Origin: Bacilli bacterium
Lineage (GTDB): Bacteria; Bacillota_I; Bacilli_A; RF39; UBA660
Direction of reading: 5' to 3'
DNA: 34,289 nt
Assembly: GCA_045634565.1 (NCBI GenBank)
Contig: JAZRAM010000030.1
Coordinates: forward strand, 1 to 34,289
Shown here: piece by piece, positions 5,947-22,269 of the stretch
Layout: each line of letters starts with the position of its first letter
Numbering within the stretch: position 1 is the stretch's first letter
Notes under the pieces: model-generated
Databases searched by the model: none
Seen by the model: only the letters and a program-made list of their open reading frames with translations
What the model was told of the DNA's origin: nothing
Program-made: the position numbers and the translations under genes

Positions 5947-6294
5947 AATATTTATTATTTTTATTTTGTTATTAATTTGTTTCTTACATAGCTATAACCA
6001 TTATTGGTTTAGATTTTTCACAATCTAAGAAAGAAAAAAATCAATTTATTTTTCTTTTTTTTGAAAGTGGACTATCTTTTGTCCTTACACATACATAACC
6101 AATTTTAATCTATTTTTTTCACAATCTATTGATTTTTTTTAGTGTTAAATAATTTAACATATTCTTAATTAATTAAGAATGCTAATGTTTCACGTGAAAC
6201 ATTAAAAAAATAAATCTATTCTTATATAACCATTATGGGTTTGTTTTTTTCACAAAAAAACCTCCAAACTTTTTATTGCTTGGAGGGAGTTTTT
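5947..6294 (-). promoter_or_regulatory. composite intergenic module: 3 class I promoter copies + palindromes + terminator
   Basis: Promoter copies at 5983-6026, 6084-6127, 6221-6255. P1 at 6143-6159. ATTCTTAATTAATTAAGAAT palindrome. P2 at 6185-6202. Hairpin at 6261-6287. Confidence 0.75.
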
Positions 6295-6636
6295 TTATTC
6301 TTCGTTATCAGCGTTCATATCATCAGTTAATTCCATGATAAAATATTTATCCATACAAATAACATTAAAAGAATTTCTATATGTTATTTGACCGTTAGCA
6401 CTTTCTATAATTTCTAGATTATTTGTTGTACACCAATCTTTGACTTGAAAAATTTCTTTTTCAACAAACGGTATAAATTTTTTTGGTTCTAAGCCATATT
6501 TTAATACATTTGAACCTGTTACTCGGCCATTACGATATGTCTCACAAATGAGAATTTTTATACGTCCATTATTAATGTAATGTCTGCGACATCCATTGCC
6601 AAATCCGTTTAATATATCATTATGATTTTCACTCAT
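6295..6636 (-). CDS. hypothetical protein
   Basis: 113-aa ORF. Its ATG is 1 nt after the stop of the glucosaminidase gene, so the two are likely co-transcribed. Confidence 0.65.
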   Translation of the reverse strand: MSENHNDILNGFGNGCRRHYINNGRIKILICETYRNGRVTGSNVLKYGLEPKKFIPFVEKEIFQVKDWCTTNNLEIIESANGQITYRNSFNVICMDKYFIMELTDDMNADNEE

Positions 6637-6637
6637 A

Positions 6638-7318
6638 CTATTCTAAATTTAAATCCTTAATTAAATTCAATATTTTATCTTTATAAAATGGGTCTTCTGC
6701 ATAGCCATTCTTAGCTAATATTATATTTAAGTATTTGTCTCTATTGGGTTTTACACCGCTAAATCGCCATTCTTCCCATAATATTCTATCTATAACACTA
6801 CATTCCCAATTTATGTACACTCCATAACCTTTATAGTTTTTACCTTTAATTTGAGTTGTTAGTCGTGTATGAACTTGTTTCATACCAAATAAATTATTAA
6901 CTTCTTTTGCTAACAAAGATGTACCACTTCCACTTTCTAAAATACATTGAGCATAAATGACTTCGGGATACCAAGCACCACATTTTTTAGCAAATTCATA
7001 AATTTTATAAATAGAGTCTGTAGGTATTTTATGACTACCACGAATAATTGATTTCCCAGCTTGGTATTCTAAATCAATAATATGTTTTGTATTTACATTA
7101 ATTGTTTCTAACCTTTCAATTTCTTTTGTTAAGAAATTTTCGTTATACTTGTGATATCCTAATAAAAACAATATACTTATAAGAAATATACTTCCTAATG
7201 TGTATAGGGTAATTTTAATTTGTTTTTTAGTGAAAAAAACTAATTCAGTTTCACTTTGGATATATTTAATATCTTGCAATGTTTTATCGTCTACTATTCT
7301 ATATGTGTATTTTTTCAT
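6638..7318 (-). CDS. membrane-anchored N-acetylglucosaminidase (GH73 / LytD-FlgJ type)
   Basis: 226 aa. AQCILESGSGTSLLAKEVNNLFGMK matches the GH73 catalytic-Glu motif. One TM (ITLYTLGSIFLISILFLLGY) precedes the domain. Confidence 0.8.
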   Translation of the reverse strand: MKKYTYRIVDDKTLQDIKYIQSETELVFFTKKQIKITLYTLGSIFLISILFLLGYHKYNENFLTKEIERLETINVNTKHIIDLEYQAGKSIIRGSHKIPTDSIYKIYEFAKKCGAWYPEVIYAQCILESGSGTSLLAKEVNNLFGMKQVHTRLTTQIKGKNYKGYGVYINWECSVIDRILWEEWRFSGVKPNRDKYLNIILAKNGYAEDPFYKDKILNLIKDLNLE

Positions 7319-7391
7319 ATTAAATTATATTTTAATTAGTATTACATTTATCTAACCATTTATATTTTATTATTTTCACAAATCATTAAAA

Positions 7392-7724
7392 TTAAACGCA
7401 TATATTTTCAATACACCATAATTTTAAATTTGTTGCATTCATTAGAGAGTTATATATTTCGATTCTCATTTGAATTGCTTTTTCGGAATTATCAAAATCA
7501 ATCCGTTGTATTTTTTGAATTATATTATGAGGTAAATGCCCATTGAGAACTTTATTGTACCAAGTGTATGGAGCGTGGTTAGCGTTTGCACGTTCGCTTA
7601 AATCTCTTGAGGTATATGCTACAAAATCATTTGGATATTCATTTTCCCAACGTTGTCGAATAACATCTTTGATAAGTTTTTCAAAATCAATATTATTCTT
7701 AAATGAAGAATTATTATTTTCCAT
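7392..7724 (-). CDS. hypothetical protein
   Basis: 110-aa ORF with a class II palindrome 27 nt upstream. Confidence 0.65.
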   Translation of the reverse strand: MENNNSSFKNNIDFEKLIKDVIRQRWENEYPNDFVAYTSRDLSERANANHAPYTWYNKVLNGHLPHNIIQKIQRIDFDNSEKAIQMRIEIYNSLMNATNLKLWCIENICV

Positions 7725-7750
7725 AGTTATTGTTTATTTTTATACTGATA

Positions 7751-7764
7751 TACTCATTTGAGTA
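7751..7764. promoter_or_regulatory. class II palindrome TACTCATTTGAGTA
   Basis: 27 nt upstream of ATG 7724. Confidence 0.6.
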
Positions 7765-7821
7765 ATATTAGTTAATCAATTTATCTATAATTATTTATTA
7801 TTATTATTATTACTTTATTTG

Positions 7822-8034
7822 TTAATAATTTATATAATTAAGATAGGTATGTTTTGTTAAATACTTAAATTCTCTAATAAAGTTTTCGATAAGCCAATTT
7901 ATGATAGATGTGTAATCTGATAGGTCGGTATAGAGATAGTTATCATCAGCATCCATCTTAACAACCAATTTTCCGAACATATCTACTTCAAAATTAGTAT
8001 TAAAGTATAAATATGACTTCTGTTCCTCAGTCAT
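7822..8034 (-). CDS. hypothetical protein (ATG-defined part; the frame stays open 76 codons further upstream)
   Basis: 70-aa ORF. See feature 8035..8262 and the frameshift finding. Confidence 0.55.
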   Translation of the reverse strand: MTEEQKSYLYFNTNFEVDMFGKLVVKMDADDNYLYTDLSDYTSIINWLIENFIREFKYLTKHTYLNYINY

Positions 8035-8262
8035 ACTTGAAAGAGGGAATAGGTATGGTTTACATTCATCTAAATTGGTAGTCCAAAAACTTTTAGTTGC
8101 ACATTTAAATGTAGCACAATTTGGTTTGTCTATACCATTAAGTTCTAAAACATTACCATATCCATCTTCACATTTTACACCATACGGTAATCTTGAACAT
8201 AAGTCTTTGGTTAATAAATCTTTTTCTGCTTGTGTTATATTTCTTTTATTTTTATATGAATT
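8035..8262 (-). other. stop-free, start-less in-frame extension of CDS 7822..8034 (Cys-rich coding-like sequence)
   Basis: My translation gives ...TQAEKDLLTKDLCSRLPYGVKCEDGYGNVLELNGIDKPNCATFKCATKSFWTTNLDECKPYLFPLSS-MTEEQ. There is no ATG/GTG/TTG, and the other two frames are closed. Confidence 0.6.
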
Positions 8263-20735: not shown

Positions 20736-20796
20736 TTAATTTTATATTTTATAAATTAATAATTAATTTAATTACTTTCGCTTAGAAAAATCCGAC

Positions 20797-20810
20797 TACT
20801 CATTTGAGTA
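20797..20810. promoter_or_regulatory. class II palindrome, extended arms (GACTACTCA-TT-TGAGTAGTC)
   Basis: 9-bp arms, followed by ATTTTTCT in gene orientation, so here it could also terminate 20828..21310. Confidence 0.6.
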
Positions 20811-20827
20811 GTCAGATATGTTTTTTA

Positions 20828-21310
20828 TTATTTCTGAAAAGCTTCTTTTAGAGAAGTCTCCAAAATTCCATCTTTATATGGATATCCGCCTGTATAAACT
20901 TGTACTACTTCCATAATACTATTTAGATACTTGGCTAGCTTTTCCACAATATTTTTTTCATCTTTCAAATCGAATTTACGGAAGTTTACTTTACATTCTT
21001 TTCCTAAATCTTTTACACTCCGCATAGCAAAATATTTATATTCATTCGCTTTATCGTATGGACTTAAATTAAAATGTGGAAACCATGATAAATCCATTTT
21101 GTCAGTTACATTATCGAATTTAAATGATATAGCATTCAATAATTGATTATGTGGATAATCACAATCTTTATTATAATTAACTTCAATAAAAAGATTATTT
21201 CTAAAGATTAAACTTGTACCATATAACACTTTTATATATTCAGGTTTAATATTTAATTTGTTATATAGTTCATTTTTTATTAGTTCAGTATTAAATCTAG
21301 TTTGTTCCAT
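20828..21310 (-). CDS. hypothetical protein
   Basis: 160-aa ORF. Confidence 0.7.
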   Translation of the reverse strand: MEQTRFNTELIKNELYNKLNIKPEYIKVLYGTSLIFRNNLFIEVNYNKDCDYPHNQLLNAISFKFDNVTDKMDLSWFPHFNLSPYDKANEYKYFAMRSVKDLGKECKVNFRKFDLKDEKNIVEKLAKYLNSIMEVVQVYTGGYPYKDGILETSLKEAFQK

Positions 21311-21344
21311 ATCTTTTTATATTTTTACGTTGTTATTATTGTTT

Positions 21345-21385
21345 CTTACATATATATAACCACTTTCAACATCGATTTTTCACAA
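21345..21385 (-). promoter_or_regulatory. class I promoter-like element (terminator-fused)
   Basis: Motif copy upstream of ATG 21310. It abuts the hairpin at 21390-21406. Confidence 0.65.
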
Positions 21386-21389
21386 AAAA

Positions 21390-21406
21390 CCTCTAAAGTT
21401 TAGAGG
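21390..21406 (-). terminator. hairpin terminator CCTCTAA-AGT-TTAGAGG
   Basis: 7-bp stem flanked by A-run/T-run. Confidence 0.6.
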
Positions 21407-21429
21407 TTTTTTTTACTTATTTGAGTATG

Positions 21430-22014
21430 TTATATAGGTTCACCCATGCAATAACTAGGTTTAGAATAAATCTCTAGATAACAATATTCTTTTTTGATAA
21501 TATCAATGATTTTATTACAAAGTGGTATTTCATTTTCTACTATCTTTGCATCGATATCGTCCATGAGACTTTCATAAAAAGTTTGGAAATCATCATCATC
21601 GGTTTCAGCTGTTATGTTCATTAATTCCATACGTTTTTTAAGTATGGTTTCAACTTCTTGAGTTGAAATATTATAACGACTACTAATATCATTAATTATT
21701 TCATTGATGTTATTGTAATTATAAGTACAACTCCACCCTGTATAATCTATTGCAGATTTATCGGTATCTCTTACAAAATCGATACAATAATTTTCATAGT
21801 AGCCACTTGTCAAAACTATATTATGTAGTTTTATAGGCTTTATAGTTTGTAAAAAACTCCTTACTCCATTTATTTTGTCATATTCAATATACCTACTTGG
21901 ATAACTCGTACTATTATTTGCATACTCGCCTAAAGCAGGAATGTTTTCAAATTCGTAATCGTCGTCAGTAACGACTACACATCTATTTATAAATGAATAA
22001 TTAAATGCTCCCAT
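21430..22014 (-). CDS. hypothetical acidic protein
   Basis: 194-aa ORF. Confidence 0.7.
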   Translation of the reverse strand: MGAFNYSFINRCVVVTDDDYEFENIPALGEYANNSTSYPSRYIEYDKINGVRSFLQTIKPIKLHNIVLTSGYYENYCIDFVRDTDKSAIDYTGWSCTYNYNNINEIINDISSRYNISTQEVETILKKRMELMNITAETDDDDFQTFYESLMDDIDAKIVENEIPLCNKIIDIIKKEYCYLEIYSKPSYCMGEPI

Positions 22015-22269
22015 AGTTCTTTAGTTTTTATTTGTTCTTACATATATAAAACCACTATTCACACATTTATTTCACAATCTCACAAAAATAAATCTACTTT
22101 TTTCATGTTAAATAATTTAACACTTTTCAATATATACACTTTATAATGTTTCACGTGAAACATAAAAAAATAAATCTATTCTAATATAACCAATATAGAT
22201 TCAGATTTTTCACAATCTGAGAAAAAAAAGTGCTGAAATATTTTTAATTTCAGCACCTTATATTTTCAA
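22015..22269 (-). promoter_or_regulatory. composite intergenic module: 2 promoter copies + P1/P2 + terminator
   Basis: Promoter copies at 22037-22080 and 22181-22218. P1 at 22106-22122. P2 at 22146-22163. Hairpin at 22230-22256. Confidence 0.75.

What the first reader, a model, noticed from the sequence alone, without database searches (positions are those of the whole stretch)
6143..22163. Perfect 18-bp palindrome ATGTTTCACGTGAAACAT (x6) in a three-palindrome module between tandem promoter copies
Seen in the sequence: ATGTTTCACGTGAAACAT occurs six times without a mismatch (6185-6202, 8527-8544, 10920-10937, 15925-15942, 20013-20030, 22146-22163). On the plus strand each copy is preceded by a second palindrome, TGTTAAATAATTTAACA. 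In five of the six modules an AT-only palindrome or hairpin built on TTCTTAATT...AATTAAGAA lies between them; the 22106-22163 module lacks this AT-only element. TGTTAAATAATTTAACA starts at 6143, 8479, 10880, 12717, 15885, 19965, 22106 and 29880, with a variant at 27079 and a decayed copy near 28445. In its longest forms (10879-10897, 15884-15902) it reads ATGTTAAAT-A-ATTTAACAT and so shares the ATGTT half-site start with the 18-mer. The set always lies between a terminator-fused distal promoter copy and a gene-proximal copy. Three architectures exist: a single promoter, a double promoter with P1 only, and a double promoter with P1 and P2 (plus the AT hairpin in five of six). Inference: either these are operators for a dimeric DNA-binding regulator that gates the distal promoter for a subset of genes, or they form three consecutive 5'-leader hairpins on distal-promoter transcripts that act in stability, processing or attenuation. 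I do not recognise this arrangement from described phage regulatory systems.
Basis: partly seen in the sequence, partly recalled or inferred. Interest (0 to 1): 0.7.

Follow-up and report, generated by a model that had tools for sequence, protein, structure and literature searches.

The report
Chromosome-type parS sites on a phage
The six identical 18-base palindromes are textbook bacterial centromere (parS) sites, the loading sites for the chromosome-segregation protein ParB, placed inside the repeated promoter cassettes of an uncultured AT-rich phage. This suggests the phage borrows its host's segregation machinery, as phage phi29 is known to do.

Summary
ATGTTTCACGTGAAACAT occurs six times exactly (0.01 expected), and TGTTAAATAATTTAACA (P1) occurs eight times exactly plus two variants. 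The genes lie on the minus strand, so the transcriptional order is: terminator, distal promoter, 18-mer, variable spacer, P1, proximal promoter, gene.

Its 16-bp core, TGTTTCACGTGAAACA, is the canonical chromosomal parS site, the loading site of ParB/Spo0J.

- The exact 18-mer is in more than 120 IMG/VR contigs of 27-70% GC with unrelated flanks. A composition-matched control palindrome is in 20.
- About half of the multi-parS contigs checked are phi29-like. phi29 carries five parS sites that host Spo0J uses to segregate the phage genome.
- In 16 related loci (91-95% identical), 45 of 48 copies are exact. In orthologous pairs parS is 108/108 and P1 is 101/102, against 82% for the rest of the module.
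- The spacer hairpin is variable and dispensable, so an RNA-leader role is poorly supported.
- No ParB gene was found in the window or in related contigs. The host is probably a Bacteroidota member.

Best reading: these are ParB (probably host) loading sites paired with an operator for an unknown regulator, serving phage-genome partition and/or early-gene silencing. This is a new variant of a known kind.

The parts
6185..6202 (.). parS site 1: ATGTTTCACGTGAAACAT, with the canonical 16-bp parS core TGTTTCACGTGAAACA
   Evidence: Exact match. The core equals the published parS consensus. It is exact in the ortholog L211:4440.
8527..8544 (.). parS site 2
   Evidence: Exact match. It is exact in the ortholog L211:1853. 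In L238-L240 the ortholog is the only variant seen, ATGTTCCACATGAAACAT.
10920..10937 (.). parS site 3, flanked by convergent promoters
   Evidence: Exact match. The ortholog L206:2283 is exact. The plus-strand promoter 10828-10857 faces it.
15925..15942 (.). parS site 4
   Evidence: Exact match. The ortholog L207:2995 is exact.
20013..20030 (.). parS site 5
   Evidence: Exact match. The ortholog L205:12174 is exact.
22146..22163 (.). parS site 6
   Evidence: Exact match. The ortholog L205:9710 is exact.
6143..6159 (.). P1 palindrome TGTTAAAT-W-ATTTAACA, a putative operator for an unknown dimeric protein
8479..8495 (.). P1 palindrome
10880..10896 (.). P1 palindrome, between convergent class-B promoters
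12717..12733 (.). P1 palindrome in a P1-only module with no parS
   Evidence: The ortholog L206:477 is also P1-only.
15885..15901 (.). P1 palindrome
19965..19981 (.). P1 palindrome
22106..22122 (.). P1 palindrome
27079..27095 (.). P1 variant with 1 mismatch, in a P1-only module
   Evidence: The ortholog L205:4389 has the exact P1.
28443..28459 (.). P1 variant with 1 mismatch, faced by the plus-strand promoter 28391-28420
29880..29896 (.). P1 palindrome in a P1-only module
6162..6179 (-). Variable AT-rich spacer hairpin TTCTTAATTAATTAAGAA. The equivalents are at 8496-8521, 10897-10914, 15902-15919 and 19982-20007. At 22123-22145 it is replaced by an unrelated spacer.
   Evidence: The element is swapped or absent at orthologous sites in the relative, so it is not required.
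6203..6254 (-). Class-B (distal) promoter-like element with its T-rich initial transcribed region, ending at the parS site. Equivalent cores are at 8566-8595, 10959-10988, 12754-12785, 15964-15993, 20053-20082, 22185-22214, 27118-27147, 28594-28623 and 29919-29948.
6261..6286 (-). Intrinsic terminator of the upstream gene, fused to the class-B promoter. Equivalents are at 8600-8636, 10995-11020, 16000-16025, 20090-20113 and 22227-22259.
   Evidence: 21 terminator-like sites found against 2.3 expected.
6094..6123 (-). Class-A (proximal) promoter-like element TGTGAAA-N15-TGGTTWTA followed by ATGTAAG. Equivalents after the other modules are at 8420-8449, 10768-10797, 15826-15855, 19906-19935 and 22047-22076.
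   Evidence: 44 sites in the window against 0.73 expected.
10828..10857 (+). Inverted class-B-like promoter firing towards P1 and parS. A second one is at 28391-28420.
   Evidence: It is conserved in the relatives L206 and L205. The plus-strand terminator at 10995-11020 could end a transcript of about 170 nt.

Best explanation
The six 18-mers are chromosomal-type parS sites, that is, loading sites for the CTP-dependent DNA clamp ParB. They are carried by an uncultured, very AT-rich, phage-like genome, probably a large virulent phage of a gut or rumen Bacteroidota host.

Each parS sits about 20 nt downstream of a terminator-insulated 'class-B' promoter. It lies 22-31 nt upstream of a second conserved palindrome, P1, which I read as the operator of an unknown dimeric regulator. 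Next come the ordinary class-A promoter and the gene.

Inferred mechanism:
1. ParB loads at the six sites, which are spaced 2-5 kb apart, and spreads over the 16-kb early region. The ParB is most likely the host's. The site is the universal chromosomal consensus, and no parB gene is seen in the phage DNA available.
2. As in phi29, this couples the phage genome to the host segregation machinery. A non-lysing (deferred or carrier-state) phage genome would then be inherited by daughter cells.
3. ParB, together with the P1-binding protein, may also damp the adjacent promoters.
4. Transcription from the class-B promoter runs straight through parS. Active early transcription and a stable ParB complex are therefore probably mutually exclusive states.

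Shown: the sequence identity to parS, the copy number, the strict conservation, the architecture, and the precedent. Inferred: which ParB binds, and what the binding achieves.
For: - Exact copies: six exact 18-mers, with no degenerate copies.
- Identity: the core is identical to the published parS consensus, TGTTNCACGTGAAACA or TGTTTCACGTGAAACA (PMC7022226; PMC10197239).
- Use across bacteria: the 16-mer occurs in genomes of many phyla, including the Bacteroidota Chryseobacterium, Alistipes and a goat-rumen Prevotella.
- Recurrence in phages: the exact 18-mer is in more than 120 (capped) IMG/VR contigs of 27-70% GC with unrelated flanks, against 20 for a composition-matched control palindrome. 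Of the 120 loci, 27 have at least 3 parS-like sites. About half of the 20 multi-site loci scanned are phi29-like.
- Precedent: phi29 has five parS sites, and host Spo0J segregates the phage genome into the prespore. Spo0A boxes sit at its promoters (PMC2731898; PMC9437464).
- Selection: in orthologous pairs parS is 108/108 and P1 is 101/102, against 1070/1308 (82%) for the rest of the module. 45 of 48 copies are exact in 16 related loci from at least 8 samples.
- The spacer varies while parS and P1 do not.
- No ParBc domain was found in 57 window ORFs, in 45 ORFs of sister contigs, or in the gene tables of the relatives.
- Host clues: a PKD + CHU_C (type IX secretion) protein is encoded on a sister contig that carries the same promoter. 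Only 4 of 48 genes have a Shine-Dalgarno-like motif.
Against: - No binding data exist.
- Only part of the genome is available: the window is a whole 34-kb contig of what is probably a much larger genome. A phage-encoded ParB therefore cannot be excluded.
- The host assignment is indirect.
- Bacteroidota do not sporulate, so the specific benefit shown for phi29 (spore entrapment) cannot apply. A carrier or deferred state has not been shown for this phage.
- Placing parS just downstream of a promoter is unusual for a centromere, because transcription through a centromere normally disturbs it.
- All relatives found are close (91-95% identity), so conservation is shown only over shallow divergence. 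Gene conversion among the repeated cassettes could contribute to the uniformity.
- No capsid, portal or terminase gene was seen in the loci examined, so 'phage' rests on lysozyme, HNH, Tad3, RtcB and jumbo-phage paralog families.
Confidence: 0.55

Rival explanations
1. The element encodes its own ParB-family clamp elsewhere in the genome, together with a P1-binding partner. On this reading parS + P1 form a KorB/KorA-like global transcription switch. Clamps loaded at parS slide to the neighbouring promoters and are locked there by the P1-bound partner. This silences or times the early cassettes, and partition is secondary or absent.
For: - Two different conserved palindromes are always paired next to promoters and are dispersed at many sites. 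This resembles the OB and OA sites of plasmid RK2 (PMC11790492).
- P1 shares the outer ATGTT...AACAT arms with parS.
- P1 also occurs alone downstream of class-B promoters, as expected for an operator.
- ParB-fold proteins are common in phages (PMC12704722).
- The window encodes a ParB-clan DUF262 (GmrSD_N)-HNH protein at 24769-25884.
Against: - No ParBc or HTH ParB was detected in 57 window ORFs, in 45 sister-contig ORFs or in the gene tables of the relatives.
- Mobile elements with their own ParB normally use a private parS rather than the host chromosome's consensus (own knowledge: P1, F, RK2).
- The distance from parS to P1 is variable, with a 22-31 nt spacer, which argues against a rigid two-protein complex.
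- DUF262-HNH proteins lack the parS-reading HTH.
Confidence: 0.2
2. The parS sites act as a sink for host ParB during lytic infection. Many copies on a replicating phage genome would titrate ParB, and through it SMC loading and ParA control, away from the host origin. This would disable host chromosome organisation as part of host takeover.
For: - Site density is high. There are six sites in 16 kb, whereas whole bacterial chromosomes have 1-20.
- The sites lie in what looks like an early or host-takeover region of small ORFs, each with its own promoter and terminator.
- All sites match the perfect consensus, which should give the highest affinity.
Against: - ParB is non-essential in many bacteria (Table 1 of PMC7022226), so the gain is unclear.
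- This reading does not explain the fixed pairing with P1 or the position just after a promoter.
- I could find no described precedent.
Confidence: 0.1
3. The palindromes act as RNA. They would form consecutive 5'-leader hairpins on transcripts from the distal promoter, controlling stability, processing or attenuation.
For: Each palindrome can form a hairpin. Three of the six modules fold significantly better than shuffles, with z from -3.0 to -4.4. The elements do lie in the transcribed region of class-B promoters.
Against: - Three of the six modules do not fold better than shuffles (z from -1.0 to -1.8), and the middle hairpin is lost or replaced in them.
- No U-run follows any hairpin on either strand.
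- Conservation is of sequence, not of pairing. The variants seen break pairs rather than compensate.
- The 18-mer recurs in unrelated phages and bacteria in non-homologous contexts. That fits a protein site, not a local RNA structure.
Confidence: 0.05
4. The module has no function for the phage. It is a piece of repeated regulatory cassette, or a small selfish insertion, copied around by recombination between the near-identical promoter-terminator cassettes and kept uniform by gene conversion.
For: - The region is built from repeated terminator-promoter cassettes like the PeSL cassettes of T4-type phages (PMC2839356 and PMC4122927).
- Only about 65% of the relatives' DNA aligns with the window, which indicates cassette replacement.
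- Spacer types are swapped between orthologous modules.
- The relative carries a seventh module (L205:7720) that is absent from the window.
Against: - Gene conversion would homogenise the spacer and the promoter flanks as well, yet these differ by 18% while parS and P1 are invariant.
- It is very unlikely that a neutral repeat would equal the universal parS consensus at 16 of 16 positions.
Confidence: 0.05

Closest known systems
Chromosomal parS / ParB (Spo0J) centromere of bacteria
   Same: The 16-bp core is identical to the consensus TGTTTCACGTGAAACA at 16 of 16 positions. Several sites are clustered within a few kb of each other. The perfect dyad symmetry is as expected for a ParB dimer.
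   Different: The sites are on a phage-like genome, not near a chromosomal origin. No parAB operon is nearby. The site density is much higher, 6 in 16 kb. Every site is embedded at a fixed position in a promoter cassette and paired with a second palindrome.
parS sites of Bacillus phage phi29 and its relatives, used by host Spo0J, together with Spo0A boxes at the phage promoters
   Same: A non-temperate phage carries several chromosomal-type parS sites and no ParB of its own. A second class of protein-binding sites lies at its promoters. Many multi-parS IMG/VR contigs are phi29-like.
   Different: - The phages are unrelated. phi29 is a roughly 20-kb podovirus, while this one belongs to a lineage with jumbo-phage gene families.
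- The host is probably a non-sporulating Bacteroidota member, so spore entrapment cannot be the purpose.
- Here parS is part of a fixed module with tandem or convergent promoters.
- The second site, P1, has no known binder.
KorB-OB / KorA-OA global regulon of plasmid RK2
   Same: Binding sites for a ParB-family clamp are dispersed near many promoters and paired with a second operator. The clamp slides to the promoters and silences them.
   Different: The site sequence is chromosomal parS, not OB (TTTAGCSGCTAAA; own knowledge). No KorB- or KorA-like genes were found. P1 lies between two promoters rather than over a -10 element.
PeSL promoter/stem-loop regulatory cassettes of T4-type phages
   Same: Near-identical terminator + promoter cassettes flank small ORFan genes and appear to mediate modular gene replacement between close relatives.
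   Different: PeSLs are not described as carrying parS or any other operator palindrome (as far as the two papers' titles and abstracts show; I did not read them in full). The promoter sequence here is unrelated.
ParABS systems of plasmid-prophages (P1, N15)
   Same: A phage genome uses ParB-parS for inheritance.
   Different: Those phages encode their own ParA and ParB and use private parS sequences (own knowledge). Here the site is the host-chromosome consensus and no par genes are seen.

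Membership tests
Chromosomal-type parS site | 16-bp palindrome matching TGTTNCACGTGAAACA | tested here: met
   All six copies match at 16 of 16 positions, and the dyad extends to 18 bp. The consensus comes from the literature.
Chromosomal-type parS site | The same sequence is used across many bacterial phyla, including the candidate host phylum | tested here: met
   The exact 16-mer is present in genomes of Actinomycetota, Bacillota, Alphaproteobacteria and Spirochaetota. 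It is also in the Bacteroidota Chryseobacterium, Alistipes and a rumen Prevotella.
Chromosomal-type parS site | Kept under purifying selection relative to its flanks | tested here: met
   108/108 identical in orthologous pairs against 82% for the flanks. 45 of 48 copies are exact in 16 loci. This covers only shallow divergence, 91-95% identity.
Chromosomal-type parS site | Specific binding and CTP-dependent loading of ParB | not testable with these tools
   This needs EMSA, BLI or ChIP with the host ParB.
Chromosomal-type parS site | A cognate ParB (and ParA) encoded on the same replicon | tested here: not met
   No ParBc domain was found in 57 window ORFs, in 45 ORFs of sister contigs or in the relatives' gene tables. 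The genome is incomplete, so absence is not proven.
phi29-type hijack of host ParB | A non-temperate phage carries several chromosomal-type parS sites without its own parB | tested here: inconclusive
   Several sites: yes. No parB in the roughly 100 kb of related DNA seen. No integrase or repressor was seen either, but the genome is incomplete and the lifestyle is unknown.
phi29-type hijack of host ParB | Endospore-forming host, with the phage genome trapped in the spore | tested here: not met
   The host clues point to Bacteroidota: a CHU_C type IX secretion domain and no Shine-Dalgarno motifs. Bacteroidota do not form endospores (own knowledge). This phage may work like phi29 but cannot serve the same end.
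phi29-type hijack of host ParB | Homology to phi29-like phages | tested here: not met
   No Gp16, connector or Phi29_MCP domains were found here. The gene families are shared with jumbo phages instead.
KorB/KorA-type clamp-and-lock regulon | A KorB-like ParB-family protein and a small KorA-like repressor encoded by the element | tested here: not met
   No ParBc or HTH hits in the DNA available. The genome is incomplete.
KorB/KorA-type clamp-and-lock regulon | Two operator types dispersed near many promoters | tested here: met
   Six parS and ten P1 sites are present. Each lies between a class-B and a class-A promoter.
Intrinsic terminator / attenuator hairpins | A GC-rich stem followed by a U-run on the transcribed strand | tested here: not met
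   None of the three palindromes is followed by a T-run on either strand. The terminator scan finds the upstream-gene terminators, not the palindromes.
PeSL-like mobile regulatory cassette | Repeated composite terminator + promoter motifs flanking variable small ORFs, with gene replacement between close relatives | tested here: met
   44 promoter-like sites and 21 terminator-like sites in the region. Only about 65% of the relatives' DNA aligns, at 91-95% identity.

The most novel reading that the evidence does not exclude
A large virulent phage of Bacteroidota uses the host's own ParB-CTP clamp as a genome-wide switch.

- Perfect parS sites placed just downstream of insulated promoters, each paired with the operator (P1) of a phage- or host-encoded 'lock' protein, would let the phage read the host's ParB, CTP or cell-cycle state.
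- The phage could then flip its whole early region between a silent, partitioned episome and lytic transcription.
- This would be a non-lysogenic dormancy mechanism, a cross between phi29 parS hijacking and KorB/KorA clamp-locking.
- The wide occurrence of canonical parS arrays in unrelated IMG/VR phage contigs would then mean that host-ParB hijacking is a general phage strategy well beyond phi29.
Probability: 0.15. Interest if true: 0.8.

Novelty: new variant of a known kind. Interest (0 to 1): 0.55.

Why it matters
If the sites load host ParB, the phi29 trick of exploiting the host centromere system is not confined to phages of spore-formers. That trick is so far documented for a small family of Bacillus phages.

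This case would extend it to an unrelated, probably large, phage of gut or rumen Bacteroidota. The IMG/VR survey suggests it extends to many other phage lineages too.

It would also give a concrete molecular handle on how nominally virulent phages persist in dividing host populations (carrier state or lytic deferment). That is an open question for gut Bacteroidota phages.

The fixed pairing with a second conserved palindrome and with tandem or convergent promoters also offers a testable case of ParB clamps interacting with transcription on a viral genome.

Tried and rejected
- Close relatives among cultured phages: none. Megablast of 20 kb, and tblastn of the 695-aa and a 732-aa protein against INPHARED, gave no match.
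- Promoter motif scans: 0 hits in IMG/VR and 0 in GTDB genomes. Only one metagenome assembly, JAEIGA01, had it.
- P1 in IMG/VR: 83 stretches, almost all single copies in unrelated contigs. This is consistent with chance for an AT-only 17-mer, so P1 is lineage-specific and I could not identify its binder.
- Rfam: only a tRNA, and nothing at the modules.
- Exact look-up of the 695-aa window protein: not on record.
- Distant DUF932 homologs (about 64% identity) on 166-402 kb contigs: GC about 40% and no parS, P1 or promoter motif, so they are uninformative for deeper conservation.
- ParB near parS in other phage contigs: a crude GERRxRA motif search was negative in 1241 ORFs. ParBc was not among the 25 Pfam families listed for 103 ORFs of multi-parS loci; 4 families were not shown.
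- ParB-associated phage thymine dioxygenases (PMC13229309): rejected, because those ParBs lack a DNA-binding domain.
- A MITE-like insertion with target-site duplication: the TAGATTTATTTTT motif on both sides is better explained as part of the promoter contexts, and no terminal inverted repeats exist beyond the palindromes themselves.
- A replication origin: rejected because there are six dispersed copies.
- The Livny 2007 parS survey could not be read because it is not held.

Full report
**1. The observation**

The 18-mer ATGTTTCACGTGAAACAT occurs six times without mismatch at the stated coordinates. No further copy appears even when up to 3 mismatches are allowed, and 0.01 copies are expected from shuffles.

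The second palindrome, TGTTAAATAATTTAACA (P1), is exact at eight positions, with 1-mismatch variants at 27079 and 28443.

The window is 25% GC. GC skew and the ORF map show that every gene from 1 to about 30,000 is on the minus strand. The modules must therefore be read on that strand. The order is:

1. stop codon of the upstream gene;
2. intrinsic terminator;
3. a promoter-like element fused to the terminator's T-run ("class B");
4. about 20 T-rich nucleotides;
5. the 18-mer;
6. a 22-31 nt spacer;
7. P1;
8. AAAAAAGTAGATTTATTTTT;
9. the ordinary gene-proximal promoter ("class A");
10. an A-rich leader without a Shine-Dalgarno motif, then ATG.

The window holds 44 copies of the promoter-like motif TGTGAAA-N15-TGGTTWTA, against 0.73 expected. 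The 18-kb stretch 5500-23500 that was scanned holds 21 terminator-like hairpins, against 2.3 expected.

Class-B promoters differ from class A only downstream of the -10-like box. They have AGAATAGATTTATTTTTT where class A has ATGTAAGAAACAA. All ten minus-strand class-B copies are followed by P1, six of them with the 18-mer inserted in between.

Two further class-B-like promoters lie on the plus strand, at 10828-10857 and 28391-28420. They fire towards P1, so two modules sit between convergent promoters.

It is degraded in two and absent in one.

**2. What the 18-mer is**

Its 16-bp core, TGTTTCACGTGAAACA, is the canonical chromosomal parS site, where ParB/Spo0J loads.

- The consensus is given as TGTTNCACGTGAAACA for B. 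subtilis and as the perfect palindrome for other species in PMC7022226.
- It is used as the search consensus for 12 gut bacteria, including Bacteroidota, in PMC10197239.
- A scan of species-representative genomes finds the exact 16-mer in many phyla. These include Chryseobacterium, Alistipes and a goat-rumen Prevotella.

These contigs range from 27 to 70% GC and have entirely unrelated flanks. A palindrome of the same composition (ATGTTCTACGTAGAACAT) is found in 20.

Of the 120 loci, 27 carry three or more parS-like sites. Of 20 such loci scanned with Pfam, about half are phi29-like podoviruses: Gp16 in 11 ORFs, the connector in 10, and Phi29_MCP in 9.

This matches a described case. phi29 has five parS sites, and host Spo0J uses them to segregate the phage genome into the prespore. 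Spo0A boxes at the phage promoters suppress the lytic cycle (PMC2731898; PMC9437464).

**3. What carries it**

No cultured phage is similar. The window is a complete 34,289-bp contig.

The promoter motif retrieved a syntenic relative, JAEIGA010000847.1 (45.5 kb, 85-94% identity), and four sister contigs from the same assembly. The 90% cluster of the DUF932 protein led to eleven more loci from ENA, JGI and Logan samples. These are 91-95% identical to the window over the roughly 65% that aligns.

Gene content:
- small ORFs of unknown function;
- a glucosaminidase;
- a DUF932 protein;
- a DUF262 (GmrSD_N)-HNH nuclease next to an EcoRI-like methylase;
- several paralogs of a 23-residue "tryptophan repeat" family that is otherwise found in jumbo phages (LPJP1, BpSp, G);
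- on sister contigs, RtcB, Tad3, phage lysozyme and HNH endonucleases.

A sister contig with the same promoter encodes a 1011-residue PKD + CHU_C (type IX secretion) protein. Only 4 of 48 genes have a Shine-Dalgarno-like motif. Both features point to a Bacteroidota host.

Some record names suggest ruminant gut samples. I did not verify this.

No capsid, portal or terminase gene was seen, so "phage" is likely but not proven. No ParB domain was found anywhere in this DNA.

**4. Conservation**

In a 13-copy alignment (window plus contig 847), the invariant blocks are the class-B promoter core, the T-rich tract, 19 nt covering the 18-mer, and P1. The spacer falls into two unrelated families.

In the six orthologous module pairs:

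| Element | Identical positions |
|---|---|
| parS | 108/108 |
| P1 | 101/102 |
| Rest of the module | 1070/1308 (82%) |

At 82% identity, the chance of no change in 108 nt is about 4e-10.

At orthologous sites the spacer hairpin is exchanged for the other spacer type, or the reverse (W8495 against L211:1894; W22122 against L205:9753). The hairpin is therefore dispensable.

Across all 16 loci, 45 of 48 parS copies are exact. The only variant is ATGTTCCACATGAAACAT in three near-identical contigs. One of its two changes is at the degenerate N of the consensus.

P1 is exact in 44 copies. Its commonest change (6 copies) is the centre base T to A, which leaves the dyad unchanged. The other variants break rather than preserve pairing.

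This is the pattern of protein-binding sites, not of RNA helices. RNA folding gives z-scores from -1.0 to -4.4, with three of six modules no better than shuffles. No palindrome is followed by a U-run.

**5. How it most likely works**

Shown:
- perfect, strongly conserved chromosomal-type parS sites, spaced 2-5 kb apart over 16 kb;
- each site about 20 nt downstream of a promoter that is insulated from upstream transcription by a terminator;
- each site paired with a second conserved dyad.

Inferred:
- ParB dimers load at these sites and spread over the early region.
- The ParB is probably the host's. The site is the universal chromosomal consensus, mobile elements with their own ParB usually have private sites, and no parB gene is seen.
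- By analogy with phi29, this would tie a non-lysing phage genome to the host segregation apparatus. Here the benefit would be inheritance by daughter cells rather than spore entrapment.
- P1 would be the counterpart of the Spo0A boxes, an operator through which a host or phage regulator shuts the adjacent promoters.
- Because the class-B promoter transcribes straight through parS, active transcription and a stable ParB complex are likely to exclude each other, giving two states.

I put 0.55 on this reading as a whole, and about 0.85 on the narrower claim that the 18-mers are ParB-binding parS sites.

Rivals:
- a self-encoded KorB/KorA-like clamp-and-lock regulon (0.2);
- a ParB sink for host takeover (0.1);
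- RNA leader hairpins (0.05);
- a functionless repeated cassette (0.05).

**6. Comparison and novelty**

The site itself is already known. Phage-borne parS used by host ParB is known for phi29.

What is different here:
- an unrelated, AT-rich lineage with jumbo-phage gene families and a probable non-sporulating Bacteroidota host;
- perfect sites at high density;
- a fixed module that combines parS with a second lineage-specific palindrome and with tandem or convergent promoters, inside PeSL-like terminator-promoter cassettes.

The IMG/VR survey also suggests that orphan canonical parS arrays are common in phages beyond the phi29 family. I could not find this described.

I rate the finding a new variant of a known kind, with interest 0.55.

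Noticed in passing
window 1427-2011, 3220-3771, 3783-4331, 17247-17882 (minus strand); many copies in L204, L208, L209, L211: A multigene family is built from 69-bp (23-residue) tandem repeats with a conserved W...LSE.FI.EF.D.V.W pattern. Pfam gives no hit. PHROG 3532 and related families match 8 ORFs on sister contigs. tblastn finds the 'tryptophan repeat gene family' of the jumbo phages LPJP1, BpSp and G, and of phage c-st.
   Followed up: partly
window 4390-4464 (minus strand): A tRNA gene (Rfam 44.9 bits) for which ARAGORN reports a four-base anticodon 'atat' and no amino-acid assignment. It may be a frameshift-suppressor-like or degenerate tRNA.
   Followed up: no
window 24769-25884 and 26013-26975 (minus strand): A GmrSD_N (DUF262, ParB-fold clan) + HNH nuclease lies next to a full-length EcoRI-type adenine methyltransferase (E = 2.5e-136). 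This may be a phage-borne restriction-like or anti-competitor pair.
   Followed up: no
whole window, 44 sites (e.g. 5993-6022, 12205-12234, 30969-30998): A very uniform promoter-like motif, TGTGAAA-N15-TGGTTWTA(+ATGTAAG), precedes almost every gene on both strands. It fits neither the sigma-70 consensus (that scan shows no enrichment) nor, from my own knowledge, the Bacteroidota -33/-7 motif. This suggests a phage-specific sigma factor or polymerase. It has 0 hits in IMG/VR and GTDB.
   Followed up: partly
window 10828-11030 (plus strand) and 28391-28460 (plus strand): Inverted class-B promoters face P1 and parS. The first could give an antisense RNA of about 170 nt ending at the bidirectional terminator 10995-11020. 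It is conserved in relatives.
   Followed up: partly
window 17168-17202, 18808-18842, 14744-14778, 2933-2967, 1375-1425; also 6073-6093, 19885-19905, 25925-25950, 28915-28940: Other conserved 5'-leader palindromes lie directly after class-A promoters: TACTCAWTTGAGTA hairpins and GTAAGG...CCTTAC / GGAC...GTCC stems. They look like alternative leader elements.
   Followed up: no
IMG/VR loci L001-L120, e.g. L052 (12 parS-like sites in 5 kb), L087 and L090 (5 sites each), L111 (6 sites): Arrays of canonical parS sites are common in viral contigs of very different GC content. About half of the multi-site loci checked are phi29-like and the rest are unrelated. No canonical ParB motif was found in 1241 neighbouring ORFs.
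   Followed up: partly
L238 10637-11167: One relative carries a TnpB / Cas12f1-like_TNB gene at the position corresponding to the window's left end.
   Followed up: no
L232, L233 (contigs of 166-402 kb, GC about 40%): DUF932 homologs (about 64% identity) sit in long arrays of small ORFs on jumbo-phage-sized contigs. Neighbouring genes include LPD28, Tad2-like, ProQ_C-like and Sigma70_r2 genes. These contigs have no parS or P1.
   Followed up: partly
window modules, e.g. 6203-6222 and 6124-6142: The motif (A/G)TAGATTTATTTTT occurs both just downstream of class-B -10 boxes and just upstream of class-A -35-like boxes, so it brackets every parS/P1 module. The GTGAAA of the promoter's upstream box is also the inner half of the parS half-site. 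Whether either point is meaningful is unknown.
   Followed up: no
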